A stretch of DNA of 64,000 nucleotides, taken from assembly GCA_000092065.1 (NCBI GenBank), contig CP000594.1; one strand, given 5' to 3'. Below the pieces are notes generated by a model that had not been told where the DNA came from, ran no database searches, and saw only the letters and a program-made list of their open reading frames with translations. Positions 29,704 through 52,055 of this stretch are shown here, in pieces (positions within the stretch are counted from its first letter, which is position 1; each line of letters starts with the position of its first letter). Origin of the DNA: Ostreococcus lucimarinus. Its lineage: Eukaryota. A program made the translations under genes and the position numbers.

Positions 29704-29729
29704 AAACCTATAACCTATAACCTATAACC
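29704..29729 (+). repeat. (AACCTAT)n heptamer microsatellite, about 3.7 copies.
   Basis: aacctataacctataacctataacct. Confidence 0.8.
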
Positions 29730-35200: not shown

Positions 35201-38200
35201 TGTCGGTGATGAAGGAAGTGAACTGCGCGGTTACCTCTGGTTGGATAGCGTTTCTGTGACACAGGAACGCTACTCTCCTCAACGAGTCGAGACGCCCTCT
35301 GCACAGCTCGGAGGTATGCAAGAAGGCGTTCACGCAATCACAGATATTGAATATTCGGTCATCAGCCGAAGCGATGGCTCTAAGTGCAAATCGCTGTCGG
35401 ACTGTGATATCATCGTGAGCCTGCGTCAGGTGAAGAGATGCATTGATGCGCAGTCGCGAGGCGATTTCAATATTTCGCCGATGGTGATGTCACAGACGAG
35501 TCCAAACCCGCAACCCGCGACGGTCTCGTGTGGTCGTCACTATGCAGCGAACTGCTCGACTTGTCCGTGGAAGGTGTCCGCGGAAGGTGTCCGTGGAAGG
35601 TGGATGGGCTGGAAATATTGCAATGGTGCGTGCGAATGGAGATGGCACGGGCGTATCAATGCAGGTGGCACGTGCGTGTCAAAGCCAGCTCCAACTCCTC
35701 CGGCAATAACAGTCACGGATCGTACTTCTTCAACACGTGGAACCGTCACTGCACAGATCACAGGGGGGACGATGACGCAATTTTCCACCTCTGCCAATTC
35801 ATCTGAAGTGCAGGACGCATTACGTCATGTCCTCGGAGCGCACGACGGAGGCTTCGTGGTGAGTCCAAGCATGGATTTGTTTGATGCGTGCGGTGTGAGC
35901 GCTCATCGCATGCGCGTTGCGCATGCGAGCGATCTCGAATCGATCCAAGCGCGGTACAAAGAAGTCGTCAATGGTGTGCCCCTGGGAATGCTACCGAAAT
36001 CTTCCCGAGGCCGCACTGCGGAAAATGACGCAGGTCTCCTTAATATAACTGTGAATGTCTCAGGCGGCCTCGCTGAGATAGTCGCGACAGACGAGTCGAG
36101 CGATTTCATCGGTATGGTGCCCCTGGACACGAGAACAGATCTCGATGTGCGCGCCTTGATTCGCGGTGGCGACGCCGTGTTGGCGACGGCTGTTGTGACG
36201 GATGGCGACACAGTCGTACCATGTTCTGTCTCACCTGACCGTATGTCTGCGACTGGCTTCAAACAAGTTCCGAACGGGCAGGCATTCGTTGGCGATGCTT
36301 CTTGCCACATCATTGTGCCACACGAGGAAGTTGCATCTGACGCGACCGTGCACGCTCCGACGGAGTTGAATCAGGATGGTTTTCCCTCACTCGGTGAGTC
36401 CGTGAGTCAATCGAGTCCGACAGACCAGAAACGTCGACGGGACGTCGAAACTATCCGTCGGCGCAGCATGTCAAACTCGCTAAAATTTCCTGGCCATGAT
36501 ACCTGGGCAAAACGAGATCTATCGATGAGTAGATCCGATCTTGGACGATTAACAGTCACAGTGGTTGGTTTTGGTGCGCGTGTGCACAACGGCGCCGCGC
36601 ACCGTAGAGCTGCGAATCACGCGCGGAAACTGTTGAAAACGGAACTCGTCGCGAAGGATGCAGGTCAGGGGAGTCTCAACAATACGAAAAGCAAGTATGA
36701 ATTTCCGGCGGGCGCGGGTCGATTCAGTGATCCATCGACGTGGGGTCCTCGGGGAGTGCCGGACCAAAACTCGACGGATATGCTCTTTATTCCTGCCGGT
36801 TTCAATCTTACTCTGGATGTCGCCGATACGTACTTCCGCGTGTGGGTGATTGAGGGGCACCTAAATTTCCAACGGGGCATGAACATCACGATGCAAGCAG
36901 AAATGATCGTCATCAACGGCGACGACGCACACTTTAGCATTGGGAGTGAAACACGTCCCTTTGAAGATCAGGCGAATATCATCATGCACGGTCACTGGCG
37001 ATCCCTCGGCTTGCCCAAATATGGGGTGAAGTGCATCTCACTGACGAGCGGACGATTAACATTCTATGGTCAGCACGTCACGCCTTGGATGGAACTGGCC
37101 ACTACGGCTTCAGCTAACGCAAACGTTATTTCCGTCAGAAGCAAGGAAGGCAAGACTCCAGATCTCGCCGGATGGAAACCGGGTGCGAGTATTGTGGTGA
37201 CGTCAACCTCTTACGGGGACAGGAGATGTCGGCAAAACCGTACAGACGACTGTCAACCCGAGGAGCGCGTTATTGAATCTGTCACTCCTAGAGGCAACTT
37301 TGCGGACATAACTCTCGATCGACCGTTGAAGTATGAACATTTGGGTGAATCCGTGAATGTGGCGGGAAGCCCCCGCGGGGCTACGATTGAGCGTCGTGCT
37401 GAAGTAATGCTTCTCACGAGAAATATCAACGTGCGCGGCACGACTGAACACAATGGGTATAAGCTCGTCGGCTTTGGCGCGCACACTATGATGATGTCTG
37501 GTCAAATGGTGTTGAAAAATGTTGAATTCGGCCCAAACGTCGGACAGGCCTTCCAACTGGGTCGGTATGCCATCCACTACCACACGCCCAATGAAAAGAT
37601 GTTCAAATATGGTTTGACAGCCTCAAATGACCCGAGGATGCAGGGCGCAGACCAGCGCTTGAGTCGTGTGGAGGGAGTCTCGGTCCACCAATCAAACAAC
37701 CGTGCGATCGCGGTGCATGGTTGTTATCGACTGAACATCATTAACAACGTCGCGTACAACATCTTGGGACATGGGATGTTCGTTGAAGATGGTGTGGAAA
37801 TGTGGAACCTCTTCAAGGACAACGTTGTTTCTCTAGTGCATCGCTCTTTCTCTCTTTTGAACACTGATCAAACACCTGCAGCGTTTTGGATATCGAACGC
37901 TAACAATTTCTTCATCGGTAATCGAGTGTCATCGAGTAATCATCATGGATATTGGTTTGACCCACCAGGAGGACCTACCGGACCGTCGTCGCGAACGCTC
38001 ACGGGGCCTTTGGAAATCCAAAAATTAAGCACTCGGAAGGTACCGCTCGGCCAGTTTGAAAATAACAGAGCCCACTCGAATGGCCACTCCGGACTTTGGA
38101 TTGATCAAATAAACACGGTCTTGCAGCAAGGCGGCAGGCTCAGAATGTACATGGTCGGTACCCACGTATGGAACAATGGAATCAACGGTTTCGGAATGAT

Positions 38201-41200
38201 TACCGGCGTTGGGCATCTACAGATTGTGAATACGTTTGCCATGGGCAACGGGATTGACATCATGTATATCAAGTCGACTGGTGCGACGTGGGCGATGCCG
38301 ACGAATGGTTGGTCCGGTAACTTGGTGTACAACGCCACCCTTCGCGGTGACCCGAAACGCAATACCCAGGCAATCGGCTGTCCGCACGGCGGATGGGTAA
38401 CATTTAACGATATCCTCATTAGTGGCTATCAAAGTAGGTTGCCCCCAATACACCACTGCGCTGTGTGTCCGGGTTTCAAAGGCGGCATGGAAGTTCGTTT
38501 CATGAATATGAAATTCGTCGACAGTGATACAAGGCGGCTCCGCGGTGGTTCAACATCTCGACCGCGCGTATTCTGGAACGGGTACAACTCCAACCTTTTG
38601 CTCGACGTGGATGGGACCCTGAGTGGATCGCCAGGTCCACGATGGGCGCATTCAGTCAAGGGCGCCAGTGATGATCCCAGGAACCGGCCGACGGGTCATT
38701 TTCCGCCAGAACACTGCACCCTCAATGATCACATCGGAGGTGTTGTTTGCGACGCCAACACTGTGTCGTTGCGAGAGGTGCAGTGGCGCCGTATCAAGCC
38801 CATGACCCTTATACCCATGGCGATGCAGACAGCACCTGATCAAAATGCAGGGCAAGTGAACTTTTATCATTACGACCATATCGAGCGACGTTTCAATTGG
38901 CGTACGACATTGGTTATGGTTAAAAGTCCGAACGCGAAGCCATACATCCATAACTTTACGTTTAAGTTTAAAACATGGCAAATTGATGACCCGGACGCTT
39001 GGTACATGGAGGTCCGTGAGCTTCAGCCCAATGAATGGGCTATAATGCGATTCCCCACACTCCGCAATCCGTGGCGTTGGAACTTGAATTCAAGAATACC
39101 GACGGTCACATTGAATAACTACAATCAAAGTGATTATAGTTTCAATGAGAGCAAGGCCATCACCACCACGAGCAACGAATGGCTGAGTTGGAAAAATCAC
39201 AAGTTCGGCGACCACACATACCTACCCGTTGTGGAGACAAGGGATGTTAATGTAAAGCCAGATCCAGGGCTGCTCGATATCATGATATCTGGCAAGCGCG
39301 AACAAGGATGGACACAATCGTACGCCCTCGGTGCCAACTATGATGGCGCGCGTGAAGATATGCCCGTCTGCACCACTTCATGCGGAAGCTCGGCAAAGTC
39401 AACATGTGGCATGAAACGCTACAACTGCAGACCGGGCGACAAGAAACGATGTTTGCCGATGGAAAAGCCTGCAAACTGCTTCGACAATCGACCTATACCC
39501 GAGGTAGATCCCGAGCCTAAAACTTTTTCCTGGTGCGACTCAAACGAAGTTTGGTCTCCGCCGGCATTCGGGGATGACGTCATGATCAAGGCTGGTTGGA
39601 CGGTCATCTTAGATGAAACCTGTCTGGTGACCAACATAACTAGACACGTGGATTTATATGGGTCCCTGTTGCTTCGTGATCCAGGCGCTGGTAAAACCAT
39701 CAAGTTCCGAGCGCAGACCATCCACGTCGCGGCTGGGATTGGATACCTCGAAGCTGGTGACCAGGATGATCCGATATCGAATGGCGACGTTCGTATCGAG
39801 CTTTATGGGAACAGATTTTCTAACGCTCGAATGGGCTACGGTATGGAGACAAAGTACATCGCCGTTCTCGGACACCTCAGCCTCGTCGGAAAGGCGAGCG
39901 TGGAGCAAACGTGGTCGACGCTTAGAAGCGATGCGCCCGCGGGAAGCAGTACAATTGAAACGACAGCCTGTGGCGGTTGGAATACTGGCGACACGCTCAT
40001 GATTGGTGGCGCTATGCACAATTGGACCGGGATCAAGCATGCTTGGTTTTTGAGCGCGGAGCGCTGTGATATTTCCTCCATAGCAGTTGCGAGCGAAGGT
40101 TGCGTCATACGGTGTACTTCCAGCTTCAACTACACGCACTCAGGCCCGGCCCAAAAGCACGAGGTCAGTTTTGGTGGAATGCCAGTGACTCTCATGCATA
40201 GGCGCTCTCCAGGTGGGCGCGTGCAGGTAGTTGGCATGGAAGACAAAAACAAGGCACTGGCAGAGCAGCACTATGGTGCTGTTATTACTATCCTGAAACC
40301 GAAAAAGAAAGGCTATGACGCAAAATTGGCTAAGAGATTCAAGATAGAACTCAAGACGCCCGAGCGCATGCAAGCGGCAACTGAAAGCATGAAACATGAT
40401 CCCCCGCCTGAATGCCACCGCAGACAAGGTTCGGCTGTGATCGTCAATGTCAACTTTGCGCATTGCGGTCAGCGGCACTCTAGTCGCGCGTGTGTTTCTT
40501 TTGCCGCCGGTATTGGCGCTGAGTATCGAGCTACGTTCGCAGAAACGACATCGATGGCACTCGTTGCGAACAACACATTTGCGGACGCCTACAATTTTGC
40601 CGTGAGCGCAGCAGGAGATGGAATTATTATAGAGAATAACGCCATCGCACAAACCTATCACGGTGGATTCGAGGTCTCTGGTGCGAACAACACAATGTCT
40701 AATAACGCAGCTGTTCGATTATTCGACGATGTTAGTGATTACTTTCACGACATTGGGTCGGTTGGTTTCAAGTTGTCGGGATCAGGGAAATGGTATACTA
40801 ACGTCGTCGCCTCCGTGCAGTACACTGGGTTTAAAATTCCTGGATATCCGTGCGAAATGATGACTCCAGACGTGGAGGATGAGGGTTTAGACGTTCGCGC
40901 TGTGACCACCGTTCCCGCCGAACCTACAATGCGTGACCTTCGCGCGTATGGTGGCATGGTAGGCGTGAATCTGCGGGGCGGGCGTACTCGGATGGTCACA
41001 CGTGAACCGGTGGAGGCCTACGCGCCGCTCGAGTGTCGCCAATGGAGCGACTTCGAGATTCGTTCAATGGTTTGGTACGGCGTAACCACGTTTGGTCAGG
41101 GAAAAACGTCTATTGTGTTGAAAAACTTTAATATTTGGGACACCGGACTTGGTTTCGCGCTGTGGATGGTCAACGGTGGCTCAGCCGCAGGTTCGAGCAG

Positions 41201-42095
41201 CGAGCGAGGGCATTTCGCAGAAATCAGTGACACGACGATAATCGGTTCTGCAAGTCGATGTAGAAACGACGGCATTGGGTTTCCCGCGTTTTACTTAACG
41301 GCAGAACCGTACCGGCCGGATCAAGGAGTGAAAACGCCATCGCGCTTTGGTGGAACGACGCTAAGAAACATAAGGTTTCGCGATTTCGGCGCATGTGAAA
41401 AGAAAGGCGTTCGTCAAGTTCGTCAAAAGAATTACGCATTGGTGAACGCCATGAACCGTGGGCGATACGCGTGGGTTTACTACGACAACGCGAACCCCGT
41501 GCGATCTTCTGGCTTGAGCTTTAAGGGTGTACCATTCGAAAACAGGTTACTCATGATCCATCCAAGCTGGGGTCGAATAGGCAATGGGAAATGGGGCTGT
41601 GCCCAAATGTACTGCGACGGACATCGCAACACGTTTGTGATGGATGAGGACGGTTCGCTGCTCGGTGATAACGCCGCATTCGGGACCATCTTGCCCGAAA
41701 ACGAGATTGGTTGGTTCAAGAAACTGGCCTATATCGATCCGCTCAGCCGTGACATTCTTGAAGATTTGGTTCCATTCACACACCAGTGGCTGCCCAACGG
41801 TACCAAACTGACGCCCATGCGAGGGAAGCTCTACGACGAGCCAGGCCATCTCAAAATGGGCTGTCGAAAGGAGGCTTCATGGCAGGCGTGGCTCTGTCCC
41901 GAACACAGGCACAGGCAAATAATCCACGAAAGTTTGGACGGCGATCACACGAAGAGGCGCATCTCCCCAACTTCTGTTCTCACAGAGCTACCATCTCAGA
42001 GCAAGCGTTTCATGTCTCTGTACACTGGGCCTGCGAAATACGGAGGAAACTCCTCGACCGAGGGCAATAACATCCAAGCGCTCGATCGAGGCTAG
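32271..42095 (+). CDS. Giant PKHD1/fibrocystin-TMEM2/CEMIP-like cell-surface protein, about 3274 aa, single exon. N-terminal signal anchor, IPT/TIG domains, two G8 domains and two blocks of PbH1 parallel-beta-helix repeats.
   Basis: IPT/TIG-like segments (~32895-33330 and 33420-33600). G8 domain 1 at ~36700-37080 (W-G-P-RGVP...PFEDQANIIMHG...YGVKCISLTSGRLTFYG) and G8 domain 2 at ~39520-39900 (FSWCDSNEVWSPPAFGDDVMIKAGWTVILDE...). PbH1-like repeats at ~37440-38350 and ~40500-41300 (NNVAYNILGHGMFVEDG..., NNTFADAYNFAVSAAGDGIIIENNAIAQTYHGGFEVSGANNTMSNNAAV). First ATG at 32271. The listed start at 32229 is TTG. Confidence 0.75.
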   Translation: MTSATPKRRRARRFLYAFGGPTLLFNLMRVFAMSGLVATITMSTAAGAAHGGGASMDEGPAQMHYMPDRFRSLAGGGWLTISSRDVHKSLMPMPGMRGGGEGANESAVSGSAMKDEVKIDLAHGDPDGERSCDLVHYKSSSNELVCSPRAVDCCLDGLTAQELASVSDGCPSVRPELNVEVNGQRLTWGSAGRNGRDTLTDESLKVSHGQTPTIVAVEPAEVRPGELITVYGRTCFGDVWKKDEDDGSSLRDDPDALRDLFSVEASAREDPRQEIGLEKSLYKVLIGDLPCEVRDPLTNRYYRSERGDGPYTAHRQTECGPVNGWFQCRVPQDIDSGLHLLHYETYTRGNAVILSEALRWNASDASKGYVLSVVDDKSEDEDPPRVYNITQLSKDESKQRLLVEGASLDAPNIVVELDGERCGGKKVVSRSGIEVECSGSAGASSQYHYGPPAWLREDWVFKDKNNKFVGGKAWSNALHVLKQRGERYNPLADEVMDALSSALATNGIVRGYKIEKVQQYLTSPSVGSPYVEATSGMKAAHAGLIRHRRIRNAVFERVSGVITAKANGRMRVAIANAAGNNMVLRVRHVSDNLNVFKPWLLVSKFCGTRYSRQNIYRYGFSQWFSVRGNEKYYMEFLMNLDPRYLHNFGGFDVKMEFSYDAGNPAGSIGQLTHTTTPHVPKRAHGGDYVVRFSGASKTAIRFAHNATSSRSNFEWKLFSGGKTIEFNTKNWLHAREHVRKVRDALRWANCTALPEDSKMWDADSTHSSHPFDVENRWLMVRDTQTFKEPTTDWNFIWQRRMGGFRGASIDWSTSYCSTHSQKFDLSSLPPGRVITPSSHFDVPASSRATTNKFLNFAYKVTPGTRATLLLRLKYRSGNRDISTTCAVLLTHEQATGNVKNFDHPACVDLRSVFKDDGEWHFISFDWRTALAGGEYAPSYLGEAMFPHKVQVQLDGIGVGAQRFLGKCPNKQRLAEMYVGDEGSELRGYLWLDSVSVTQERYSPQRVETPSAQLGGMQEGVHAITDIEYSVISRSDGSKCKSLSDCDIIVSLRQVKRCIDAQSRGDFNISPMVMSQTSPNPQPATVSCGRHYAANCSTCPWKVSAEGVRGRWMGWKYCNGACEWRWHGRINAGGTCVSKPAPTPPAITVTDRTSSTRGTVTAQITGGTMTQFSTSANSSEVQDALRHVLGAHDGGFVVSPSMDLFDACGVSAHRMRVAHASDLESIQARYKEVVNGVPLGMLPKSSRGRTAENDAGLLNITVNVSGGLAEIVATDESSDFIGMVPLDTRTDLDVRALIRGGDAVLATAVVTDGDTVVPCSVSPDRMSATGFKQVPNGQAFVGDASCHIIVPHEEVASDATVHAPTELNQDGFPSLGESVSQSSPTDQKRRRDVETIRRRSMSNSLKFPGHDTWAKRDLSMSRSDLGRLTVTVVGFGARVHNGAAHRRAANHARKLLKTELVAKDAGQGSLNNTKSKYEFPAGAGRFSDPSTWGPRGVPDQNSTDMLFIPAGFNLTLDVADTYFRVWVIEGHLNFQRGMNITMQAEMIVINGDDAHFSIGSETRPFEDQANIIMHGHWRSLGLPKYGVKCISLTSGRLTFYGQHVTPWMELATTASANANVISVRSKEGKTPDLAGWKPGASIVVTSTSYGDRRCRQNRTDDCQPEERVIESVTPRGNFADITLDRPLKYEHLGESVNVAGSPRGATIERRAEVMLLTRNINVRGTTEHNGYKLVGFGAHTMMMSGQMVLKNVEFGPNVGQAFQLGRYAIHYHTPNEKMFKYGLTASNDPRMQGADQRLSRVEGVSVHQSNNRAIAVHGCYRLNIINNVAYNILGHGMFVEDGVEMWNLFKDNVVSLVHRSFSLLNTDQTPAAFWISNANNFFIGNRVSSSNHHGYWFDPPGGPTGPSSRTLTGPLEIQKLSTRKVPLGQFENNRAHSNGHSGLWIDQINTVLQQGGRLRMYMVGTHVWNNGINGFGMITGVGHLQIVNTFAMGNGIDIMYIKSTGATWAMPTNGWSGNLVYNATLRGDPKRNTQAIGCPHGGWVTFNDILISGYQSRLPPIHHCAVCPGFKGGMEVRFMNMKFVDSDTRRLRGGSTSRPRVFWNGYNSNLLLDVDGTLSGSPGPRWAHSVKGASDDPRNRPTGHFPPEHCTLNDHIGGVVCDANTVSLREVQWRRIKPMTLIPMAMQTAPDQNAGQVNFYHYDHIERRFNWRTTLVMVKSPNAKPYIHNFTFKFKTWQIDDPDAWYMEVRELQPNEWAIMRFPTLRNPWRWNLNSRIPTVTLNNYNQSDYSFNESKAITTTSNEWLSWKNHKFGDHTYLPVVETRDVNVKPDPGLLDIMISGKREQGWTQSYALGANYDGAREDMPVCTTSCGSSAKSTCGMKRYNCRPGDKKRCLPMEKPANCFDNRPIPEVDPEPKTFSWCDSNEVWSPPAFGDDVMIKAGWTVILDETCLVTNITRHVDLYGSLLLRDPGAGKTIKFRAQTIHVAAGIGYLEAGDQDDPISNGDVRIELYGNRFSNARMGYGMETKYIAVLGHLSLVGKASVEQTWSTLRSDAPAGSSTIETTACGGWNTGDTLMIGGAMHNWTGIKHAWFLSAERCDISSIAVASEGCVIRCTSSFNYTHSGPAQKHEVSFGGMPVTLMHRRSPGGRVQVVGMEDKNKALAEQHYGAVITILKPKKKGYDAKLAKRFKIELKTPERMQAATESMKHDPPPECHRRQGSAVIVNVNFAHCGQRHSSRACVSFAAGIGAEYRATFAETTSMALVANNTFADAYNFAVSAAGDGIIIENNAIAQTYHGGFEVSGANNTMSNNAAVRLFDDVSDYFHDIGSVGFKLSGSGKWYTNVVASVQYTGFKIPGYPCEMMTPDVEDEGLDVRAVTTVPAEPTMRDLRAYGGMVGVNLRGGRTRMVTREPVEAYAPLECRQWSDFEIRSMVWYGVTTFGQGKTSIVLKNFNIWDTGLGFALWMVNGGSAAGSSSERGHFAEISDTTIIGSASRCRNDGIGFPAFYLTAEPYRPDQGVKTPSRFGGTTLRNIRFRDFGACEKKGVRQVRQKNYALVNAMNRGRYAWVYYDNANPVRSSGLSFKGVPFENRLLMIHPSWGRIGNGKWGCAQMYCDGHRNTFVMDEDGSLLGDNAAFGTILPENEIGWFKKLAYIDPLSRDILEDLVPFTHQWLPNGTKLTPMRGKLYDEPGHLKMGCRKEASWQAWLCPEHRHRQIIHESLDGDHTKRRISPTSVLTELPSQSKRFMSLYTGPAKYGGNSSTEGNNIQALDRG

Positions 42096-43349
42096 GAGCT
42101 CGAGCGCTTGTTCCACCGCGGCGTCTCCGATGGCGTGCACGGCGATCTGAAGACCCGCTGCGTCCGCGAGAGTGGCTTGCTTGCGCAAAATTTTCTCTCT
42201 TTTACCTCTGGGGTACATCAAATGTCCAGACGTCGACCCGTCGTCTAGATACGGCGCCATCATCGCCGCGGTTCGCCCGCCCAAGCTACCGTCGAGAAAC
42301 GCCTTGACGCCGCCCAATCGAACCCGAGAAGCCGCGGTCTCATTCTCTCGCGTCCAACCACTGTTCCACGCGACGTGGGATTGAACGCTTGCCCAGTCCC
42401 CGAGTGGCATGTACGACGTGATGCGAATCGGAAGGTCGCCGACCGCGTCCCATCGCTCGAGCGTCTCAAAATCTTCCCAGAGCTGCGCGTATCCATCCGC
42501 GCCCGCCACCAAGCTCTCGATGTCCCCGAAATCACCCACGGTCGTGATTCCTTTACTGAGTAAGTACTCAAACGCCCGTTTAAACGCTTCATCGCGCTCG
42601 CTCCGCGACCGCTTCGGCACCGCGTTCGACATCGCCGCCGTGGCCAACTCCTTTAGAATCCCAGTCGGCGCCCCCTCGTCGTCCAACTCCACGATCCCAC
42701 CCGCGATCACCGTCTTCGCGCCCGTGATCTTCGCGATTTCCAACGCCGCCTCGCTCGCGAATCCGACGTGTCCGCACGTCCGCGTGACCCACACCTTCGC
42801 TCCGACGAATCGTTCGTCGCCGCGCGTCCACGCGTTCGACGGCGTCTCGCCGCCCCACGACGTCTCGTCCCAACCGTGTCCCAGCACCCATTTTTCCTTC
42901 CCAGCGTCGATCGCTCGCGCGAGGGTCTCTATGAACTCTTCTTTGGACCGCACGCCTCGCAGATCGAGCGCGTCGAGCGCGAATCCGCCCGTGACGACGT
43001 GCGCGTGCGCGTCGACGAAGCCGCTTCGCAGCGCGCGCCCGCCGCAGTCCAACACGACGCCGAATCTCGTCGACGGAACGTCTTCGACGGCGATGATTCG
43101 CCCGTGTCGGGATACCGTGATGTCTTTGATCGCGCCCGCGTCGCCGACGGCGCAGTTCGCGAACGTGGTGACGTCGGCGTCGCGTTCGGCGTCGGTCGAG
43201 TGATGACGCGCGCGAGCTGGACCGGTGGTTTTAGCGCCGTAGCCGAGCGGGCAGGCGGAGAATCGAGCCTCGAACGCGGGCCAGGCGATCGCGAGGAGTG
43301 CGCTCGCGATTGCGAGGGCGAACGCGACGTCGCGGGGGGTCCATCGCAT
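41988..43349 (-). CDS. Amidohydrolase-3 family (YtcJ/LAF3-like) metal-dependent hydrolase with an N-terminal TM anchor. Apparently truncated C-terminally, possibly a pseudogene.
   Basis: ATG at 43349. TM MRWTPRDVAFALAIASALLAIAW. H-x-H metal site (VDAHAHVV), LGHGWDETSW, and ...IAVHAIGDAAVEQALELLAS. After HAIGD, about 40 aa remain and they overlap the 3' end of the PKHD1-like gene. The expected ~150-aa C-terminal part of the fold (RIEH..., GSD, final metal ligands) is absent. Confidence 0.5.
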   Translation of the reverse strand: MRWTPRDVAFALAIASALLAIAWPAFEARFSACPLGYGAKTTGPARARHHSTDAERDADVTTFANCAVGDAGAIKDITVSRHGRIIAVEDVPSTRFGVVLDCGGRALRSGFVDAHAHVVTGGFALDALDLRGVRSKEEFIETLARAIDAGKEKWVLGHGWDETSWGGETPSNAWTRGDERFVGAKVWVTRTCGHVGFASEAALEIAKITGAKTVIAGGIVELDDEGAPTGILKELATAAMSNAVPKRSRSERDEAFKRAFEYLLSKGITTVGDFGDIESLVAGADGYAQLWEDFETLERWDAVGDLPIRITSYMPLGDWASVQSHVAWNSGWTRENETAASRVRLGGVKAFLDGSLGGRTAAMMAPYLDDGSTSGHLMYPRGKREKILRKQATLADAAGLQIAVHAIGDAAVEQALELLASIERLDVIALGRGVSSVFRRPSVQRHETLALRW

Positions 43350-43479
43350 GGCGCGGGAGCGCGCGCGAGGCGGACGCTGACGCGAGGAGCGGCGAGCGGG
43401 CGCGTGGCGGCGGCGGCGGTATGATTACATGAATGCCTGCGTGCTGGACGATCGGTGGTCGTCGTGAACGCGAGACGCT

Positions 43480-45918
43480 CTATTTGTTGTTGCTTTCGGC
43501 TTCGGAAATTTTTCTGAGAGCCTCCTTTTGAGACGCGTCGAACGCGTGCTGCATGTCTCGCTCGTTCCAACGCAAACATCTTCGAAGCGAATTGATGAAA
43601 TCGCCCGTTTGATCGGCGTAGTTGATGGTGGGAATCGGGTATTGGCTCATGCGGACGAACACGGAATCCCCGCTCTCGAGCTCGCAGCGATCGCGGCCGT
43701 CGAAGGAGACCCAGGCGGAACATCGAGCGTCTTGCGCAACGCGTAGCTCGATTTCGACGCTGTCGGGGAAAATGACGGGTCGGAAAGACAGCGTGTGTGG
43801 GCAAATCGGAGTCATCAAGATTGCTGGAACGTTCGGGTGCACCATCGAACCTCCAGCGGACACGCTGTAAGCAGTGGAACCGGTGGCGGTGGCGACAATG
43901 ACGCCGTCGGCTTGAATAGTCGTGATGAGTTCTCCGCGATCGTACGCCTCAATTTGAGATAAATACGGACTTGGACCTCGATCAACGAGCAACTCATTCA
44001 AGACGGTGATCTTTTTCGTGAATTCGCCCGTTCCACCGCTTCCGATCTTGTCCTTTGCCTTGACCAGTGTACACTCGAGACGCATGCGAAGCGTAATCGG
44101 CACGCCTCCTTGGATGTTCACCACGGGCTTCCCTCGTCCGATGGATTGAAGCAAGCTCGAAGCCATTTCGTCCGATGGGTGGCTTGTCAAAAACCCGAGC
44201 GAGCCGAAATGGAACCCGAGAAGCGGCGGCACTGGCCCTTGGAATAACTTGCTCGCGTGCAGGATGACGCCGTCACCGCCCAAACACACGATGATATCAG
44301 TTGTACCCCAGTCCTCTTGAGGGATGATGCCGTCCACTTTGCGCAGTTTTTCGGCATTTTTTAAAACTACCGCTCTGTGCAGGGTGTCTTCGAGGATGTC
44401 TGCGTTCGCCAATTCATCCATGACGTCTTCGTCGAGGACGACGGTGATCCCCATCGTCATCATCGCGTGCGCGATCTCTATGAGTTCTGGCAGCAGGCCA
44501 AAGCCAATCTTCTTCAGTAAGAAAACACGCCGCGGTTGTTGACGCCATACCAATATCAATTGTTGCGTGCTCGGGTGAGATATCTTCAGTTCCCGGTTCT
44601 CGACGAGCTCGCGCGTGCACGAGAAACCGTCGGTTCGAATTATGTACATATCCGGAGCGTCCGTCAGAGAGCTGTGTTCGCCAACGACAATTTCTTCCCC
44701 GTTTGCAGTACTATCGAATTCATGATCCGCGATAAACTTTTCTCCGTTGAATGTCTTGTTATTCAACTTCGCGGCGTACTCGCGAACAAACGCCTCCTGT
44801 GCGATCGATCCGAAGTCGCACACGAGCGATTCAGCCGAGAGCGCCTCGTCGACGTCCATTCCTTGGTGCACACGCCAGCACGCGACGAGTGATCCGGTCC
44901 GTCCAATTCCAGCTTTACAGTGCACCAGGATCGGTCGCATCTTGTCATCGTTTACAGTCTCGATGAATCGTTTCACATCCTCCTCCGTCGGCGGCTCCAT
45001 GTCGGGAATCGGTATGTGTACGATGTTGAGCGCGCTCGCGCCGAACGTCCCTTGGCCCGAGCCTCCCCCGAACGCTTGTAGCCACTGGTTATCTCTATCG
45101 CTCCCGCGCAAATCGATGACAGTTTTGAAGTTGTTGCGAACCAGCCAAGCTCGACCTTCCGCGGTGGGCTGCCCTCCTCGATAATACGCCGCAGCGCTCT
45201 CGTCGCCAACTTCGGTGACGATTTGCAAGTTTGGGATCGCCGTTCCGCTCGGCGCGTTCGGCGCGCGTAATCGCGGATGCACCAAGTCCAGCGACGCGCT
45301 TCGAAGCGCCTCGAAGCGATGCCGCACCGTTACCGAGCATCCGCCGATCTCTTCGCACGACTGTTCCAGTATCACTCGCAACTCCCACAGCGCCGTGCGA
45401 AGACGCGACAACTCCTTACTTCGCAAGTTGTTACTGAACCTCCCGGCGACTTCCGCGGCGGACGCGTACACGACCATCCTCCCCAACGCCTCCGTCACCT
45501 CTCCCGAGCATGAAGCGAGCGTGTTATTCGAAAAGTCCACCTCGCACTCCGCCGATAAGACGTCGGCGAACGACGCCAGCACCGCGCGTTCTAATTGCGC
45601 CGCCAACTGCGGCAACGGGACGTAACTCTGATCCGAGGTCGAAGGAAACTCCACGACATCTCCCTTTTCCTGTTTCTTCGCCCCGGTATCGACCGACGGG
45701 AACATTTCAGACTCTGAAATCGCGCGTCGCTCGCCGCCGCCTCGACCTCGCGACGCGTCCCGCGCGTTCGGGCGCGCACCTCCGAAGGCCGAGCGCCGTC
45801 CGGGCAAATGCGCGCGCCGCGCCGTCACTGTGCATACATTAGACCGTTCACGCGCGAGTTTCGTCGTCGACGACGCGCTGACGCGCGATGCCGCGGCGAT
45901 CATCGTCCCGCTCGCCAT
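43480..45918 (-). CDS. NADK: NAD kinase with an N-terminal plant/fungal atypical dual-specificity phosphatase (PFA-DSP/Tyr_Pase_2)-like domain and a transit-peptide-like N-terminus.
   Basis: NAD kinase motifs GGDGVIL, NE..VDRG, DGVIVATATGSTAYSVSAGGSMVHP in the C-terminal third. Upstream C-x5-R phosphatase P-loop ILVHCKAGIGRTGSLVACWRV (pattern HCK-G--RTG-LV-C-R as in PFA-DSP/Siw14-type enzymes). ATG at 45918 (MASGTMIAAASRVSASSTTK...). Confidence 0.75.
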   Translation of the reverse strand: MASGTMIAAASRVSASSTTKLARERSNVCTVTARRAHLPGRRSAFGGARPNARDASRGRGGGERRAISESEMFPSVDTGAKKQEKGDVVEFPSTSDQSYVPLPQLAAQLERAVLASFADVLSAECEVDFSNNTLASCSGEVTEALGRMVVYASAAEVAGRFSNNLRSKELSRLRTALWELRVILEQSCEEIGGCSVTVRHRFEALRSASLDLVHPRLRAPNAPSGTAIPNLQIVTEVGDESAAAYYRGGQPTAEGRAWLVRNNFKTVIDLRGSDRDNQWLQAFGGGSGQGTFGASALNIVHIPIPDMEPPTEEDVKRFIETVNDDKMRPILVHCKAGIGRTGSLVACWRVHQGMDVDEALSAESLVCDFGSIAQEAFVREYAAKLNNKTFNGEKFIADHEFDSTANGEEIVVGEHSSLTDAPDMYIIRTDGFSCTRELVENRELKISHPSTQQLILVWRQQPRRVFLLKKIGFGLLPELIEIAHAMMTMGITVVLDEDVMDELANADILEDTLHRAVVLKNAEKLRKVDGIIPQEDWGTTDIIVCLGGDGVILHASKLFQGPVPPLLGFHFGSLGFLTSHPSDEMASSLLQSIGRGKPVVNIQGGVPITLRMRLECTLVKAKDKIGSGGTGEFTKKITVLNELLVDRGPSPYLSQIEAYDRGELITTIQADGVIVATATGSTAYSVSAGGSMVHPNVPAILMTPICPHTLSFRPVIFPDSVEIELRVAQDARCSAWVSFDGRDRCELESGDSVFVRMSQYPIPTINYADQTGDFINSLRRCLRWNERDMQHAFDASQKEALRKISEAESNNK

Positions 45919-46608
45919 CCCTCGTCACCGGGCGCCGCACACGATTCCCGCGCGCTCGCGCGTCCGCGGGACTCGCGAGACCTCGCGACGGGCGCGAACG
46001 ATGCTCTCGCGCTCGTTCCACGCGCTCTTCCGGCGATCGCGGCGTGCGCGTGCGTCGACGCGCGCGCGTGTGCGCCCGGGCGCGACGCGACGGCGAAGCG
46101 CGAAAACGCCCTCGCGCGCGTCGCGACGCCCAGCTTCGCGAAACCGAAACGTCCGAACCTTTAAGCGCCGTCATCGCAATCTACTCGAAGCACGATCAGT
46201 GTCGCGAACCACACCATCGATCGAACGCGCGACGAGCACCGCTTCGCGAAACATGAAACCGATCGACCCACCGTCAGGTTCACGAACCTGCAAGCCCCGA
46301 ACCCGCGCGCGGGTTCGATTCGACATCAACGAACCTCGCGCGGTTCAGCGAACCTTCGATCGGGTGACAAAAATAGCATCCCGAATGATGCGCGCCATCG
46401 TGGATCGCGGAATGGATGTCCGATCGAAAAAATACGACCGCGATCCCACGGATGCGTGGGTGTGCGAACATCGATATCGATATCATCGATGACCGGGGTT
46501 TCGATCGTTTCGTCGCCCCGTCCGCGATCGCGCGCGCGGGCCCGGTCGCGCGCGCGATTGCGATTACAAGGGGCCTCCCGACGCGTCGCATCGCGACGCG
46601 CGCACGCC

Positions 46609-47959
46609 ATGGCCCTCTCTCTCGCGCAGGTCGCGCCCGCGGCGCAGGTGCGTCGCGTCTCGCACCGTCGCGCGCGTCGCGCGCGTCTCTCGGCGTCGCG
46701 AACGCGCGCGCGTCGTCGCGAACGGCGGCATCGCTCGGCATCGGATAGGATGGCCATCGGCGCGTCGTCGCGGGTCGACGCGCGACCGGGACGCGACGAC
46801 GCGCGACGTCGACGGAGGGCGAGAGAAAAATCGACGACCGCGGACGCGCGGGTGACTGACGAGAGGTTTCGCGGCGCAGTTTTCTTCGCGTAAGCGCGTC
46901 TGCGGCGCGCCGGCGGCGGCGTCCCGGACGCGCGTCGTCGTCCCGCGGGCTCGAGCGGTCGCGGCGCGCGCGAGCGGAGAGAAGAAGTCGGTGTTGATCG
47001 TGAACACGAATGGTGGCGGACACGCGAACATCGGGTTCTGGCTGGCGAAGACGCTGGCGGGGGCTGGGCACGACGTGACGATGAACGTCGTCGGCGCCGA
47101 GGACGATAAGAAGATGGCCAAGACTCCGTTCTCGTTGTTCGATGAGATTCGAGGGATGGGTGTGAAGACGGTGTGGGCGAACCCCGATGAAGTGGCGTCC
47201 AAGCATGCCGGGGCGAAGTTCGACGTGGTCGTCGATAACAACGGTAAGGACATGGACACCGTTGGTCCGGTGGCGGATTTCGCCGTCGCCGCGGGGGCGT
47301 CGCAGTTCTTGTTCGTCTCGAGCGCGGGTATCTACAAGCCCACGCCGTGCCCGCCGCACGTCGAGGGCGATGCCGTGAAGGAGACGAGCGGCCACGCCGT
47401 CGTCGAGGCGCACTTGAAGACGTTGCCGTTGAAGATGAGCTCTTTCCGCCCGCAATACTTGACGGGATACGGATCGAACAAGGACTGCGAGGAGTGGTTC
47501 TTCGATCGCGCCGTGCGCGGCCGACCGATCTTGGTCCCGGGCTCGGGTGATCAGCTCTCGTCGGTGACGCACGCCGAAGATTTGGCCACCATGATCGCCG
47601 CCGCCGTCGGCAACGACGCCGCCGCTGGGGAAATCTTCAACTGCGTGACGACGAAAGCCGTCACGCTGAACGGCATGGCGGAACTTTGCGCCAAGGCTGC
47701 GGGCGTCGAACCGAACGTGATCAACTACGACCCGAAGGATGTCCCGGATGTCGAAGTTAAGAAGGCGTTCCCGTTCCGCCCGATCCACTTCTACAGCTCC
47801 AGCGCCAAGGCGCAAGCCGTGCTCGGCTGGTCGCCCAAGCACCCGGATTTGGCCGCCGAGCTCAAGGAACGCTTCGCGTACTACAAGTCCATCGGACGCG
47901 ATAAGAAGGAGATGTCGTTCGAAACCGACGACAAAATTCTCGCCGCGATCGGCAAGTAA
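46609..47959 (+). CDS. CSP41: CSP41-type chloroplast stem-loop-binding protein (NAD-dependent epimerase/dehydratase fold). Two exons: 46609-46647 and 46880-47959, with a 232-nt GC-rich intron at 46648-46879.
   Basis: The mature part (KKSVLIVNTNGGGHANIGFWLAKTLAGAGHDV...) has no in-frame ATG. The listed start at 46991 is GTG. A transit-peptide-like ATG exon (MALSLAQVAPAAQ) lies upstream in another frame. Donor CAG|GTGCGT at 46648. Branch-like ACTGAC 22 nt before the acceptor GCGCAG| at 46879. Splicing restores a continuous ~50-aa R/A/S-rich transit peptide. Confidence 0.6.
46648..46879 (+). other. Predicted spliceosomal intron of the CSP41 gene (232 nt, GTGCGT...CTGAC...CAG).
   Basis: See the CSP41 CDS entry. 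The frame change from 1 to 2 is exactly compensated. Confidence 0.5.
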
Positions 47960-48043
47960 ATAGCGAGCTTGATTTTATATTAAACGAACATATTGAACGT
48001 GCAACGCGAGCTAAAACGTACAGTACACGGATCGGCGACGTCG

Positions 48044-49222
48044 TCATCGGTTTGGAACTTGGGAGAAACCACCTAGAAAGTTGAGCGCCAAATTCTTCGC
48101 CGAGTCCGCCGTCAGGGATTGTATTTCACGATCCAAGTGCGCGCGATGCGTCGCCCGCGGACTGGCGTAGGCGTAACTCGCGTGTCGAAGCGTGACCTCG
48201 ACCCCTCGCGTCAACGACTCGTACGCCTCGCCGAGATCGGAATCTTTGAACCTTTCTAACTCATCCATATCACCGTCGATGATGTGCCAATGCTCGCCCG
48301 GACGCGCGGTGGTGGCGATGAGATTCGCCGCGGCGAGCGAGCGCGAGGCAAAGTTTTCGGTCGGGATCACGCAGACCCCGTAACCGTCGACGTCTTCGGC
48401 GACTTCGAAACCGTTTTCTCTAAATATTTCGCGGCACCTCTCCACCGCGCGTCCGCGCGAATTCAAGACGAACACCTTGCTCCCGCGCGCCAGCGCGGCG
48501 TGCAAGAGCGGTTTCAGGTCCTCGTACACGACCTGCTCGCCCGCGCTCGTCCCCGGCTCGCCGTCCGCCGTCGTCTCCATCCGACGCGCGTCCACCGACG
48601 CTTGCAAACCCGCCGGCATCATCCGTCGCCCGTCCCACCCGACGCTCGACTCCACCTCCTCCCCCCACTTCAACACGCTCATCAACTTTATCTCCGGCCA
48701 GCTCGACACGATCTCGTCCACCGTCAACGGCCTCGTTCTTCGCTCGAACCGCTGCTCGTTTGAAAACACCGGCCCCGGCCGCCCGCCGCTCGTCGTCCGC
48801 CCGCCGATGATCGCCTCGTCCGCGATCACCCGCACCATCACCACCGCCTCGCACGACGTCGACTCCGCGATCGCTCGTCGCATCGTTCGCATCGCCTCGA
48901 CGTACGACGACGCGTCTCCCGGGACGTGCTCCGGCCAGCGCTCGCGCGCCACCGCGTGGCTCACCCTCGTCATCTCCACCGTCGCGTCCACGACGGCGTC
49001 GTACGCGAACAGCACGACGTCGCGCGACCGCTCGATGGCGTCGTCGTCGCTCGCGTCGCTCGCGTCCGCCGCGCGTCGCGCGACGCGTCGGCGTCGCGCC
49101 GACGCCGACGCCGATGTCCCGCTCGATCGCGTCGCGCGGTCGCGCGCGCCTCGCGCGGTCGCGGTCGCGCGCGCGCGCGGCTCCGGACGCGCGCGCGACG
49201 CGTCGATCGCCCGCGCGTCCAT
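48044..49222 (-). CDS. Hypothetical organelle-targeted protein, weakly HAD-hydrolase-like, about 392 aa.
   Basis: ATG at 49222 (MDARAIDASRARPEP..., a transit-peptide-like run). Core with protein-like composition (VVLFAYDAVVDATVEM ... KVFVLNSRGRAVERCREIFRENGFEV ... HIIDGDMDEL). The upstream part of the listed ORF (to 50206) is GC-rich antisense of the neighbouring gene. Confidence 0.4.
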   Translation of the reverse strand: MDARAIDASRARPEPRARATATARGARDRATRSSGTSASASARRRRVARRAADASDASDDDAIERSRDVVLFAYDAVVDATVEMTRVSHAVARERWPEHVPGDASSYVEAMRTMRRAIAESTSCEAVVMVRVIADEAIIGGRTTSGGRPGPVFSNEQRFERRTRPLTVDEIVSSWPEIKLMSVLKWGEEVESSVGWDGRRMMPAGLQASVDARRMETTADGEPGTSAGEQVVYEDLKPLLHAALARGSKVFVLNSRGRAVERCREIFRENGFEVAEDVDGYGVCVIPTENFASRSLAAANLIATTARPGEHWHIIDGDMDELERFKDSDLGEAYESLTRGVEVTLRHASYAYASPRATHRAHLDREIQSLTADSAKNLALNFLGGFSQVPNR

Positions 49223-49282
49223 GGCGCGCGCGCGTGTCGCGCCGCGCGCCGCGACGACGCTCGGAGGGACGCGGGACGCGCG

Positions 49283-50761: not shown

Positions 50762-50994
50762 AGATACGTCGCGGCGCTAGTCGGTGAATTCGCTCGCTCG
50801 CGCGTCGCGTCGTTTACGGATGAATGGAATCGAAAGATTAAAAGCCTATGGTAATTAATCAGCAGCGATACACGTGCGCTTGAGCGTCGTCCGCGCTTAA
50901 TGCTTGAACACCCGCTCGCGTGCGGCGAAAACTCGCGGCGAAAGAGATGATATTCGTCGTACAAACGAACGACTCGAACGACTCGCTCGAGCGT

Positions 50995-51735
50995 CTACGC
51001 CGAGAACAACTCCTCCAAAGTCATGTCCCGCATCTTGGCCACTTCCTTGAACGTTCGCATCTCGTTCAACCCCGCAACGACCGCCCGCGCATTATTCAAC
51101 GGGTTCGAGCTTCCGAGCTGTTTCGCGAAGCAATTCTTATAGCCCGCCAGCTCCAAAACCGTGCGGCACGCGCCCCCCGCGATGACCCCCGTCCCCGGGC
51201 TCGCCGGGCGCAGCATCACCACCGCGCCGCCCTTCCCCTTCACCGTCACTCGATGCGGGAACGTGTCCCCTTTAGTTATCGGCGCTCGCTTCGCGCTCTT
51301 TCGCGCATCGCTCGCCGCCTTCGTCACCGCGATTTGCACCTCCTTCGCCTTCTGGCACCCGACGCCAACCAAACCCTTGCCGTCGCCCACGACCACGGTG
51401 GCGCGGAAGCTCATCTGCGACCCGCCCTTGGTGATTTTCGTGACGCGCGACACCTGGACGACGGACTCTTGCATCCCGTCGTCCTCCTTGCCGCCGCGAC
51501 CGCGGCCTCGGCCGCCGCGACCACCGCGTCCGCCGCCGCGCCCGCCGCGCGCGCGCGGGGTCTCGGACTCGCCTTCGACTGCCGACGCGTCTGCGTCGTC
51601 GCCGGCGCGCGCGACCGTCGCCGTGCGCCGCGGGGCGACGGCGACAATTTTATCGCATCGGTTCGCGCGGCTCGGGAGGCGCGCGGACGCCGCGCGAGAC
51701 GCGGGCGCGGCGGTGAGGGCGATGGAGGCCATCAT
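50995..51735 (-). CDS. RPS5: Plastid 30S ribosomal protein S5 (uS5c), nuclear-encoded with a transit peptide.
   Basis: Gly-Arg-rich linker, then [62 protein letters not shown]...[34 protein letters not shown], a canonical S5 double-psi fold sequence. ATG at 51735. Confidence 0.85.
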
Positions 51736-52055
51736 GATTCGCGGCGCGACGTCGATGGTTGAATCGACGCGTGGAAGCGCGCGTGGGCGGCGGTCGTCCG
51801 GGCGTGCGGTGGGCGCGCGACGAAACGATCGACGGTGCGCGTCGAGCGTGCGCGAGCGGCGACGATGGCGTCGCGGTGTGCGGCGCGGCGGCGGCGACGT
51901 TCGAGGGCGAGGGCGAGAGAAACCCTATTGCTCCTTCAGGGTAGAGATGGGGTGGCGACCGACCGCGTGTGGGTAAACAGTGATAAATCGACGCGATCAG
52001 GACGCCGCGGCGCGCGCGAGTCGCTCGAAAAGGCGCGCGGGGATCGATCACAACG

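What the first reader, a model, noticed from the sequence alone, without database searches (positions are those of the whole stretch)
41988..42120. Amidohydrolase gene loses homology exactly at the boundary of the AT-rich island, with 108-nt convergent coding overlap
The minus-strand amidohydrolase-3 gene reads well through H-x-H and HAIGD. Its remaining ~40 residues (ELLASIERLDV...) coincide with the last codons of the plus-strand PKHD1-like gene, and the usual C-terminal third of the fold is missing. The break point is within a few nucleotides of the PKHD1-like gene stop (42093-42095) and of the composition shift. This is what an insertion or rearrangement that clipped the 3' end of the amidohydrolase gene would produce. 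The alternative is a missed 3' exon.
Basis: inference. Interest (0 to 1): 0.6.

Follow-up and report, generated by a model that had tools for sequence, protein, structure and literature searches.

The report
Tandem duplication junction clipping two genes
The spot where the amidohydrolase gene "loses homology" is the head-to-tail joint of a recent tandem duplication of about 143 kb in an Ostreococcus lucimarinus chromosome; the joint cut the 3' ends off one copy each of two converging genes, which is an ordinary kind of structural variant.

Summary
The minus-strand Amidohydro_3 ORF (41988-43349) matches full-length, intronless 593-598-aa orthologues only to codon 423 (window 42081). It lacks the last 175 residues, and these are encoded nowhere in the window.

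The plus-strand G8/CEMIP ("PKHD1-like") ORF is also truncated. Native copies on natural contigs are identical up to 42051 and then continue for about 684 more residues to a membrane anchor. Between the two breakpoints lie 29 nt of filler (42052-42080). The 108-nt "coding overlap" is just each broken ORF reading on to the next chance stop.

None of 20 natural contigs that cross either breakpoint carries the joint. Six window proteins each have two identical entries in O. lucimarinus CCE9901, and their order fits a head-to-tail repeat. The intact amidohydrolase is a single entry ahead of copy 1, and the genes downstream of native G8 are single entries after copy 2.

A natural TARA scaffold places the window's left part 143,029 bp to the right of its right part. 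This is therefore the novel junction of a direct tandem duplication of about 143 kb. It is not an inserted AT-rich island and not a missed exon. Interest is low to moderate.

The parts
1..42051 (.). Distal end of duplication copy 1. Gene order: VPS13-like, cofilin-like, RRP12, COMM, RRS1, PAP, 689-aa DOMON-annotated gene, 355-aa gene, G8/CEMIP gene.
   Evidence: Syntenic at 99.5-100% identity with natural contigs L005-L020 and L031-L033. On natural TARA scaffold_46 this block lies 143,029 bp to the right of the block at 42081-64000.
32229..42051 (+). Truncated copy of the giant G8 / CEMIP beta-helix ('PKHD1-like') gene, native part only. It lacks about 684 C-terminal residues, including the Cys-rich region, the PSSPRPDVPAPV repeats, the coiled coil and the transmembrane anchor.
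   Evidence: Pfam finds two G8 domains plus CEMIP_beta-hel. Native gene calls are 3869-3870 aa. L031-L034 align up to exactly 42051 and then diverge. The native C-terminus was translated. Homologue P0153 also continues to a transmembrane anchor.
42052..42080 (.). 29-nt filler at the joint, CCTCGACCGAGGGCAATAACATCCAAGCG. It matches neither parent locus.
   Evidence: Alignments. It is unique in the window, absent from the 34 loci fetched when one search was run, and absent from viral contigs. Its first 12 nt are an 11/12 copy of the palindrome CCTCGATCGAGG that spans the native amidohydrolase breakpoint, which is not significant (shuffle P=0.14).
42081..43349 (-). Truncated copy of the YtcJ/LAF3-type Amidohydro_3 gene, codons 1-423. 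It keeps its own upstream region, the HxH motif, the Lys in GVKAFLDGS and the HAIGD motif. It lacks RIEH, GSDWP and the rest of the barrel.
   Evidence: It is 100% identical over residues 100-423 to the intact CCE9901 copy XP_001421402. Sixteen natural contigs stop aligning at exactly 42081.
41988..42080 (-). Read-through tail of the broken amidohydrolase ORF: 30 unrelated codons (RLDVIALGRGVSSVFRRPSVQRHETLALRW) plus a stop. It is read from the filler and then antisense to the G8 gene.
42052..42095 (+). Read-through tail of the broken G8 ORF: 14 unrelated codons (SSTEGNNIQALDRG) plus a stop. It is read from the filler and then antisense to the amidohydrolase.
   Evidence: The native sequence reads ...KYGGN|WAGKITRH....
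42075..42111 (.). 11-nt inverted repeat, CAAGCGCTCGA ... TCGAGCGCTTG, joining the last 6 nt of the filler to amidohydrolase sequence. It is a possible trace of snap-back (templated) synthesis at the broken end.
   Evidence: k-mer search. Single-strand DNA fold gives -20.7 kcal/mol, z=-3.1, with 0 of 200 shuffles as stable. The mechanism is inference only.
42081..64000 (.). Proximal start of duplication copy 2. Gene order: truncated amidohydrolase, PTP-NAD kinase, epimerase-like, Cupin_8, plastid rpS5, NMNAT-like, EMC6, WD40, SAM synthetase, LmeA, Fes1, PsaH ....
   Evidence: Colinear at 99.5-99.8% identity with L001, L021, L022 and L035-L044. Paired CCE9901 accessions for rpS5, NMNAT and SAMS.

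Best explanation
The site is the novel head-to-tail junction of a recent direct tandem duplication of about 143 kb on the 708,927-bp chromosome of Ostreococcus lucimarinus (CCE9901-type genome).

In the unduplicated chromosome the order is: amidohydrolase(-), NADK, rpS5, SAMS, about 100 kb, VPS13-like, RRP12, PAP, DOMON, G8(+), a 643-aa gene, a 490-aa gene. One break fell inside the amidohydrolase gene after codon 423. The other fell about 143 kb away, inside the G8/CEMIP gene about 684 codons before its stop. The distal broken end (G8) was joined to the proximal broken end (amidohydrolase) by end-joining, with 29 nt of filler.

The result is: intact amidohydrolase, copy 1, [G8 truncated | filler | amidohydrolase truncated], copy 2, intact G8. 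The two clipped genes at the joint keep their promoters. Each reads through the joint to the next chance stop, which produces the 108-nt apparent convergent overlap.

The clipped amidohydrolase lacks strands beta6-beta8 with two metal ligands, so it is most likely a dead chimeric pseudogene. The clipped G8 protein lacks its membrane anchor.

Shown: both truncations, the exact breakpoints, the filler, the ancestral order and distance, and the paired identical genes. Inferred: the end-joining mechanism, loss of function, and that the duplication exists in the living strain rather than only in the assembly.
For: 1. **Amidohydrolase side.** Pfam covers only positions 2-296 of 472. The full-length forms P0001, P0003 and P0123 are 585-598 aa. 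The C-terminal 175 aa are absent from the window. Sixteen independent natural contigs are colinear up to exactly 42081 and then continue into the normal C-terminus and a convergent 332-413-aa gene.
2. **G8 side.** Four natural contigs are 96.6-100% identical up to exactly 42051 and then continue. The native product is 3869-3870 aa, and the native tail ends in a transmembrane anchor.
3. **Duplicated genes.** Window proteins are exact matches to CCE9901 proteins that each carry two accessions: SAMS ABO99518/99553, cofilin-like 99542/99578, DOMON 99547/99582, rpS5 99699/99730, NMNAT 99700/99731, PAP 99724/99758. The intact amidohydrolase (99695), the 643-aa gene (99583) and the 490-aa gene (99584) are single. 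The per-strand numbering gives the order amidohydrolase, unit, unit, 643 aa, 490 aa, with both copies on the same strand.
4. **Ancestral order and distance.** Natural TARA scaffold_46 holds SAMS and RRP12 in the window's orientation but in swapped order. The coordinate offsets differ by 143,029 bp.
5. **Recency.** The truncated copy is 100% identical to the intact CCE9901 copy over 324 aa.
6. **No collapsed repeat in the window.** The window has no internal repeat of 100 bp or more.
Against: - The CCE9901 chromosome sequence itself could not be read with these tools. The two-copy structure rests on paired accession numbers and their order, not on an alignment of the two copies.
- No read-depth data and no independent junction-spanning sequence were available. 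The chimeric 453-aa product and its tail are not in the protein and contig collections. Both are weak tests.
- The intact G8 gene in copy 2 has no accession between ABO99582 and ABO99583, so its presence there is inferred.
- The templated-filler signature is not statistically secure (P=0.14).
Confidence: 0.85

Rival explanations
1. Assembly or cloning artefact. A chimeric clone or read joined the G8 gene to the amidohydrolase gene, and the reference assembly wrongly laid out a duplicated block.
For: None of 20 natural contigs carries the joint. No gene product with the chimeric tail is on record. Both genes are broken at the joint, as in a chimera.
Against: Assemblers collapse identical repeats rather than invent a second 143-kb copy. 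The annotation has two full, ordered sets of identical genes. The joint has 29 nt of unique filler rather than a shared repeat, so it is not an overlap-driven misjoin. The two breakpoints lie in the orientation and order that a direct tandem duplication predicts.
Confidence: 0.08
2. Insertion of a foreign or mobile AT-rich island that clipped the amidohydrolase gene.
For: GC drops from about 0.62 to about 0.53 at the site. The gene is cut exactly there.
Against: The left flank is native chromosomal DNA, syntenic on many natural contigs with housekeeping genes. Its terminal gene is itself truncated. The other half of the amidohydrolase is not in the 42 kb to the left. The same left-flank genes lie 143 kb to the right of the amidohydrolase locus in an unduplicated scaffold. 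The lower GC is a property of the giant G8 gene wherever it occurs.
Confidence: 0.02
3. A missed intron with a downstream 3' exon, or trans-splicing, completes the amidohydrolase.
For: A full-length 598-aa form, 99.8% identical over the shared 423 residues, exists in public data.
Against: That form is encoded by an uninterrupted ORF on genomic contigs colinear with the window. There is no donor site at the break. The missing 175 aa are absent from all frames of the window. The sequence after the break is filler followed by antisense G8.
Confidence: 0.01
4. A non-duplicative rearrangement, either a large deletion or a translocation/relocation between the two genes, without a second copy.
For: Two broken genes joined with filler would also result from a deletion or a translocation.
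Against: About 9 kb downstream of the native G8 breakpoint and about 10 kb downstream of the native amidohydrolase breakpoint share nothing, which rules out a small deletion. A deletion between convergent neighbours needs G8 to the left of the amidohydrolase, but the natural scaffold puts it 143 kb to the right. Six genes are present twice, and an intact amidohydrolase persists.
Confidence: 0.04

Closest known systems
Novel junctions of large direct tandem (segmental) duplications, as described for copy-number variants in yeast, Caenorhabditis elegans, Plasmodium and humans, including chimeric or truncated genes at the joint
   Same: The distal breakpoint is joined head-to-tail to the proximal breakpoint. 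Both genes cut by the breakpoints are truncated at the joint, and intact copies remain at the outer edges. There is short filler and no long homology at the joint. The two copies are identical, meaning the event is recent. The variant is strain-specific.
   Different: The unit, about 143 kb, is roughly a quarter of the inferred ancestral chromosome of about 566 kb in a 13-Mb genome. The duplication lies on a standard chromosome, not on one of the outlier chromosomes.
Large duplications in laboratory Ostreococcus tauri (80 kb on chromosome 19, 30 kb on chromosome 2; PMC4378021) and the 'accordion' small outlier chromosome (PMC7112755)
   Same: Large copy-number changes arising within strains or cultures of the same genus.
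   Different: Those lie on the outlier chromosomes (chromosomes 2 and 19). This one lies on a standard high-GC chromosome and spans ordinary housekeeping genes. No link to virus resistance is shown here.
YtcJ / LAF3-type Amidohydro_3 metal-dependent hydrolases (PDB 3ICJ, 3IGH)
   Same: The N-terminal 423 residues align with the family, including HxH, the Lys in VK(A/L)F.DGSLG and HAIGD.
   Different: This copy lacks profile positions of about 297-472, including RIEH and GSD. It therefore cannot form the complete barrel or metal site. The full-length paralogue in the same genome is the real family member.
G8-domain / CEMIP beta-helix membrane proteins (fibrocystin / PKHD1-like, CEMIP/TMEM2)
   Same: Two G8 domains and a CEMIP-type right-handed beta-helix. 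The native form is a giant type I membrane protein.
   Different: The copy at the joint lacks about 684 C-terminal residues and the anchor. Sequence relatives are almost confined to marine picoeukaryote data.

Membership tests
Direct tandem segmental duplication (novel junction) | Each flank of the joint is colinear with a single-copy locus in unduplicated relatives, right up to a sharp breakpoint. | tested here: met
   Sixteen contigs stop at 42081 and four contigs stop at 42051. All of them continue with other sequence.
Direct tandem segmental duplication (novel junction) | The locus on the left of the joint lies downstream (distal) of the locus on the right in the ancestral chromosome, in the same orientation. 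| tested here: met
   On TARA scaffold_46 the coordinate offsets are -35,362 for the right part and +107,667 for the left part, in the same orientation. The unit is therefore 143,029 bp.
Direct tandem segmental duplication (novel junction) | Genes between the breakpoints are present twice in the same genome, in the same order and on the same strand. | tested here: met
   Six of six tested window proteins have two identical CCE9901 accessions, and their per-strand order is consistent. This is indirect evidence: the DNA of the two copies was not aligned.
Direct tandem segmental duplication (novel junction) | Intact copies of the two broken genes persist at the outer edges of the repeat. | tested here: inconclusive
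   The intact amidohydrolase, XP_001421402 / ABO99695, precedes rpS5 copy 1. The intact G8 in copy 2 is not annotated. Only its downstream neighbours, ABO99583 and ABO99584, follow DOMON copy 2.
Direct tandem segmental duplication (novel junction) | Twofold read depth over the unit, and reads spanning the joint. | not testable with these tools
   No read data were accessible. The CCE9901 runs SRR847306-SRR847308 are named in 10.1101/2025.04.21.649811.
Amidohydro_3 (YtcJ/LAF3-type) hydrolase, functional member | Complete (beta/alpha)8 barrel with all metal ligands: HxH, Lys, His (beta5), His (beta6), Asp (beta8). | tested here: not met
   The Pfam match covers only positions 2-296 of 472. RFRIEH and GGSDWP are present in P0001 and P0129 but absent here. 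The assignment of these motifs as ligands comes from general knowledge of the amidohydrolase superfamily.
G8 / CEMIP beta-helix membrane protein, full-length | G8 domains plus beta-helix plus a C-terminal membrane anchor. | tested here: not met
   The domains are present. The anchor and about 684 aa are missing relative to native L032.
Theta-type (templated) end-joining scar | Filler copied from sequence next to the break, with priming microhomology. | tested here: inconclusive
   An 11-nt inverted repeat includes 6 nt of filler (hairpin z=-3.1). The first 12 nt of the filler are an 11/12 copy of the breakpoint palindrome, but shuffle P=0.14. About 9-11 nt of the filler remain unexplained.
Mobile-element or foreign-island insertion | A bounded element with terminal repeats or target-site duplication, with the interrupted gene's other half at the far end. 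| tested here: not met
   The left flank is native syntenic DNA. The other half of the gene is absent from the window. No repeats were found.

The most novel reading that the evidence does not exclude
The duplication of about 143 kb, roughly a quarter of the ancestral chromosome and about 65-70 genes, is a very recent event private to strain CCE9901. It may have arisen or been selected in culture.

Its joint would preserve a multi-part templated filler, which would be the first sequence-level evidence for theta-type end-joining in Mamiellales. It would also express a new anchorless, possibly secreted, form of a giant G8 surface protein next to a promoter-bearing amidohydrolase stub, with the two transcribed into each other.

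If real in the living strain, every dosage-sensitive or paralogue-counting analysis done on the O. lucimarinus reference is affected for these genes.
Probability: 0.15. Interest if true: 0.45.

Novelty: new member of a known kind. Interest (0 to 1): 0.3.

Why it matters
- **Annotation.** The result explains an apparent gene decay and "island boundary" as a duplication scar. It flags two ORFs, the 453-aa amidohydrolase stub and the roughly 3,260-aa anchorless G8 protein, as junction artefacts rather than genes with unusual architecture.
- **Gene counts in the reference.** About 65-70 gene models in the O. lucimarinus reference exist as identical pairs because of one event. This matters for gene-family counts, orthology tables, read mapping (multi-mapping over 286 kb) and expression or methylation analyses on this reference.
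- **Genome plasticity.** Large copy-number changes in Ostreococcus are not confined to the outlier chromosomes.
- **Otherwise ordinary.** Apart from these points it is a standard structural variant.

Tried and rejected
- **Missing C-terminus.** I looked for the missing 175 aa in all frames of the window and found none.
- **Exact chimeric product.** An exact-product look-up of the 453-aa chimeric ORF found nothing on record. A look-up of the CCE9901 partial model P0129 also found nothing. The CCE9901 chromosome itself is not retrievable with these tools.
- **Chimeric tail search.** A homology search with the 46-aa chimeric tail returned nothing, but only one candidate was scored, so this is a weak test.
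- **G8 C-terminus search.** A homology search with the C-terminal 799 aa of the G8 ORF returned only two distant proteins, although near-identical native genes exist on contigs.
- **Small-deletion hypothesis.** Rejected. The sequences downstream of the two native breakpoints share nothing, and the ancestral order is wrong for a deletion.
- **Origin of the filler.** No copy was found in the window, in the 34 loci fetched when one search was run, or in viral contigs. Similarity to the flanks is not significant.
- **Literature.** Six full-text searches and several paper look-ups found no description of this duplication. The genome paper (Palenik et al. 2007, PMC1863510) is not held, so prior description cannot be excluded.
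- **Outlier-chromosome idea.** I first thought the window might be a Micromonas or an outlier-chromosome (BOC/SOC) boundary. I rejected this once the cluster members named O. lucimarinus and placed the locus on a standard 709-kb chromosome.
Full report
**The observation**

The minus-strand ORF at 41988-43349 encodes 453 aa. It matches Pfam Amidohydro_3 with E=2e-48, but only over profile positions 2-296 of 472. It aligns with the solved YtcJ-like hydrolases 3IGH and 3ICJ through HxH, VK.F.DGSLG and HAIGD, and the alignment then stops. The plus-strand 3288-aa ORF (32229-42095) ends at 42093-42095, so the two ORFs overlap by 108 nt. GC rises from about 0.53 to 0.60-0.68 across the site.

**The amidohydrolase is truncated, not spliced**

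A homology search found full-length relatives of 585-598 aa. One of them, P0001, is 99.8% identical over the shared 423 residues. They read ...ELLASIE-AANGERSLRRFRIEHSQHL...GGSDWP..., whereas the window reads ...ELLASIE-RLDVIALGRG...LRW*.

tblastn of P0001 against the window matches residues 1-423 (43349-42081). It finds nothing for residues 424-598 in any frame.

On genomic contigs the gene is one uninterrupted ORF. It is preceded by the PTP-NAD kinase gene and followed by a convergent 332-413-aa gene. At the DNA level, sixteen independent natural contigs (91.9-99.8% identity) all stop aligning at exactly window 42081. All of them continue for at least about 0.5 kb with the normal 3' part of the gene. 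This rules out a missed exon.

**The plus-strand gene is truncated too**

The giant ORF has two G8 domains and a CEMIP-type beta-helix. A 47%-identical relative, P0121/P0153, aligns up to 17 residues before the window ORF's stop. It then continues for about 295-690 residues to a transmembrane anchor.

Natural contigs carrying the window's 689-aa upstream gene have G8 gene calls of 3869-3870 aa. Four JGI metagenome contigs that contain the 3' part (L031-L034) are 96.6-100% identical to the window up to exactly 42051 and then diverge. The native continuation encodes 684 more residues: a Cys-rich region, PSSPRPDVPAPV repeats, a coiled coil, a membrane anchor and a short tail.

**Anatomy of the joint**

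| Window coordinates | Content |
|---|---|
| up to 42051 | G8 gene, native sequence |
| 42052-42080 | 29-nt filler, CCTCGACCGAGGGCAATAACATCCAAGCG |
| 42081 rightwards | amidohydrolase sequence |

The filler occurs nowhere else in the window, in the 34 loci fetched when one search was run, or in IMG/VR. Each broken ORF reads through the joint to a chance stop. The G8 ORF gains 14 new codons and the amidohydrolase ORF gains 30. This creates the 108-nt overlap.

Two features hint at templated repair:
- The last 6 nt of the filler complete an 11-nt inverted repeat with 42101-42111. The hairpin has z=-3.1, and 0 of 200 shuffles fold as well.
- The first 12 nt are an 11/12 copy of the palindrome CCTCGATCGAGG that spans the native amidohydrolase breakpoint. 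A shuffle test gives only P=0.14.

I treat this as suggestive only.

**What kind of rearrangement**

The left flank is ordinary nuclear DNA. It holds a VPS13-like gene, a cofilin-like gene, RRP12, RRS1, poly(A) polymerase (PAP), a 689-aa gene that UniRef names as DOMON-domain-containing, a 355-aa gene and the G8 gene. It is syntenic at 99.5-100% identity with many natural contigs. It is therefore not a foreign island.

A small deletion is excluded, because the sequences downstream of the two native breakpoints do not overlap.

Cluster look-ups identify the organism as Ostreococcus lucimarinus. They also show that six of six tested window proteins are exact matches to CCE9901 proteins that each carry two accessions on the 708,927-bp chromosome:

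| Protein | CCE9901 accessions |
|---|---|
| SAM synthetase (SAMS) | ABO99518 / ABO99553 |
| cofilin-like | ABO99542 / ABO99578 |
| DOMON | ABO99547 / ABO99582 |
| plastid rpS5 | ABO99699 / ABO99730 |
| NMNAT-like | ABO99700 / ABO99731 |
| PAP | ABO99724 / ABO99758 |

Three entries are single: the intact amidohydrolase (ABO99695 / XP_001421402, 'partial', with the normal C-terminus), and the two genes that follow native G8 (ABO99583 and ABO99584).

Accession numbers run separately for each strand. Both series give the same order: amidohydrolase, [rpS5, NMNAT, SAMS ... cofilin, PAP, DOMON], [rpS5, NMNAT, SAMS ... cofilin, PAP, DOMON], 643 aa, 490 aa. Both copies of each gene are on the same strand. 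The window (cofilin, PAP, DOMON | rpS5, NMNAT, SAMS) is the middle of this arrangement.

**Direct test of the ancestral order**

One natural scaffold (TARA_SAMEA2619467 scaffold_46, 130,345 bp) carries both SAMS and RRP12 in the window's orientation. Scaffold position 20,635 corresponds to window 55,997. Scaffold position 127,106 corresponds to window 19,439.

The two offsets (-35,362 and +107,667) differ by 143,029 bp. In the unduplicated chromosome the window's left part therefore lies 143 kb to the right of its right part. This is exactly what a head-to-tail tandem duplication predicts, with a unit of about 143 kb.

The unit holds about 31-36 gene models per strand by accession spacing. The two copies occupy about 286 kb of the 709-kb chromosome.

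The truncated amidohydrolase is 100% identical to the intact copy over 324 residues. None of the 20 natural contigs that cross a breakpoint has the joint. The event is therefore recent and strain-specific.

**Consequences (inferred)**

The amidohydrolase stub keeps its upstream region. It lacks the part of the barrel that carries the RIEH histidine and the GSD aspartate, so it should be inactive. The intact paralogue supplies the function.

The G8 stub keeps its promoter and N-terminus but lacks the anchor. Neither stub has its native 3' end, so the two would be transcribed into each other.

**Caveats**

- I could not read the CCE9901 chromosome or any reads. The duplicate structure rests on accession pairs plus the natural-scaffold geometry.
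- An assembly or cloning artefact remains possible at about 8%. It is disfavoured because assemblers collapse rather than create identical 143-kb repeats, and because the joint is a unique filler-bearing sequence rather than a repeat-mediated overlap.
- I found no paper describing the duplication. The original genome paper is not held, so the duplication may have been noted there.

**Verdict**

The site is the novel junction of a large, recent tandem duplication. This is a known kind of event, and it has practical consequences for use of this reference genome. Interest is 0.3.

Noticed in passing
window 26755-26796 (centre 26769-26776); L014:841-9879 and equivalents in L005-L020: The window has a perfect palindrome of about 42 nt, ATCCCGCGCTTTGATTACTGTACAGTAATCAAAGCGCGGGAT. 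In every natural contig examined, a cassette of several kb (about 9 kb in L014) sits in its centre. The cassette carries a giant and highly variable DUF285 gene (one ORF of 1440-2740 aa, or split into two or three smaller ORFs). TTACTGTA is repeated at both cassette ends. The window lacks the cassette entirely.
   Followed up: partly
L014:9830-9870 (right end of the DUF285 cassette): Plant-type telomere-like repeats (TTTAGGGTTTAGGGTTTTGGG) lie interstitially at the cassette boundary, right next to the palindrome half-site.
   Followed up: no
window 29717-30134: A 410-bp segment is 88.9% identical to a segment inside the DUF285 cassette of natural contigs (for example L014:982-1391). It is a dispersed repeat flanking the variable region.
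   Followed up: no
window 37-11901 and 32229-42051: The two giant genes are markedly GC-poorer than their neighbours on this standard chromosome. The VPS13-like gene (at least 3954 aa) is about 48% GC and the G8/CEMIP gene about 52%, against 60-75% for the neighbours. The 'AT-rich island' impression comes from this gene-level heterogeneity.
   Followed up: partly
L007 (ENA ERZ27294995 k141_451290), beyond window-equivalent 22993: One natural contig leaves the window's synteny just past the PAP gene. PAP is followed there by Zip, LHC, DNA_pol_A_exo1, choline-transporter and TPT genes instead of RRS1. This is either another natural rearrangement or a chimeric metagenome contig.
   Followed up: no
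about 8-9 kb beyond the amidohydrolase 3' end in L036, L038, L039, L041, L042 and L044 (contig ends): Six independent assemblies end their contigs at nearly the same place, about 8-9 kb past the amidohydrolase. Contigs also tend to end at the DUF285 cassette. This suggests another repeat or hypervariable spot there.
   Followed up: no
window 43480-45918 (-): The neighbouring gene is a fusion of a dual-specificity phosphatase-like (PTP-NADK) domain with NAD kinase (812 aa). On the contig from the closest related lineage (L002) it is called as two overlapping ORFs.
   Followed up: no
The word-indexed protein search missed near-identical 3869-aa G8 proteins that are demonstrably present on JGI and ENA contigs. 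Negative results from that tool for giant proteins or short queries should not be read as absence.
   Followed up: yes
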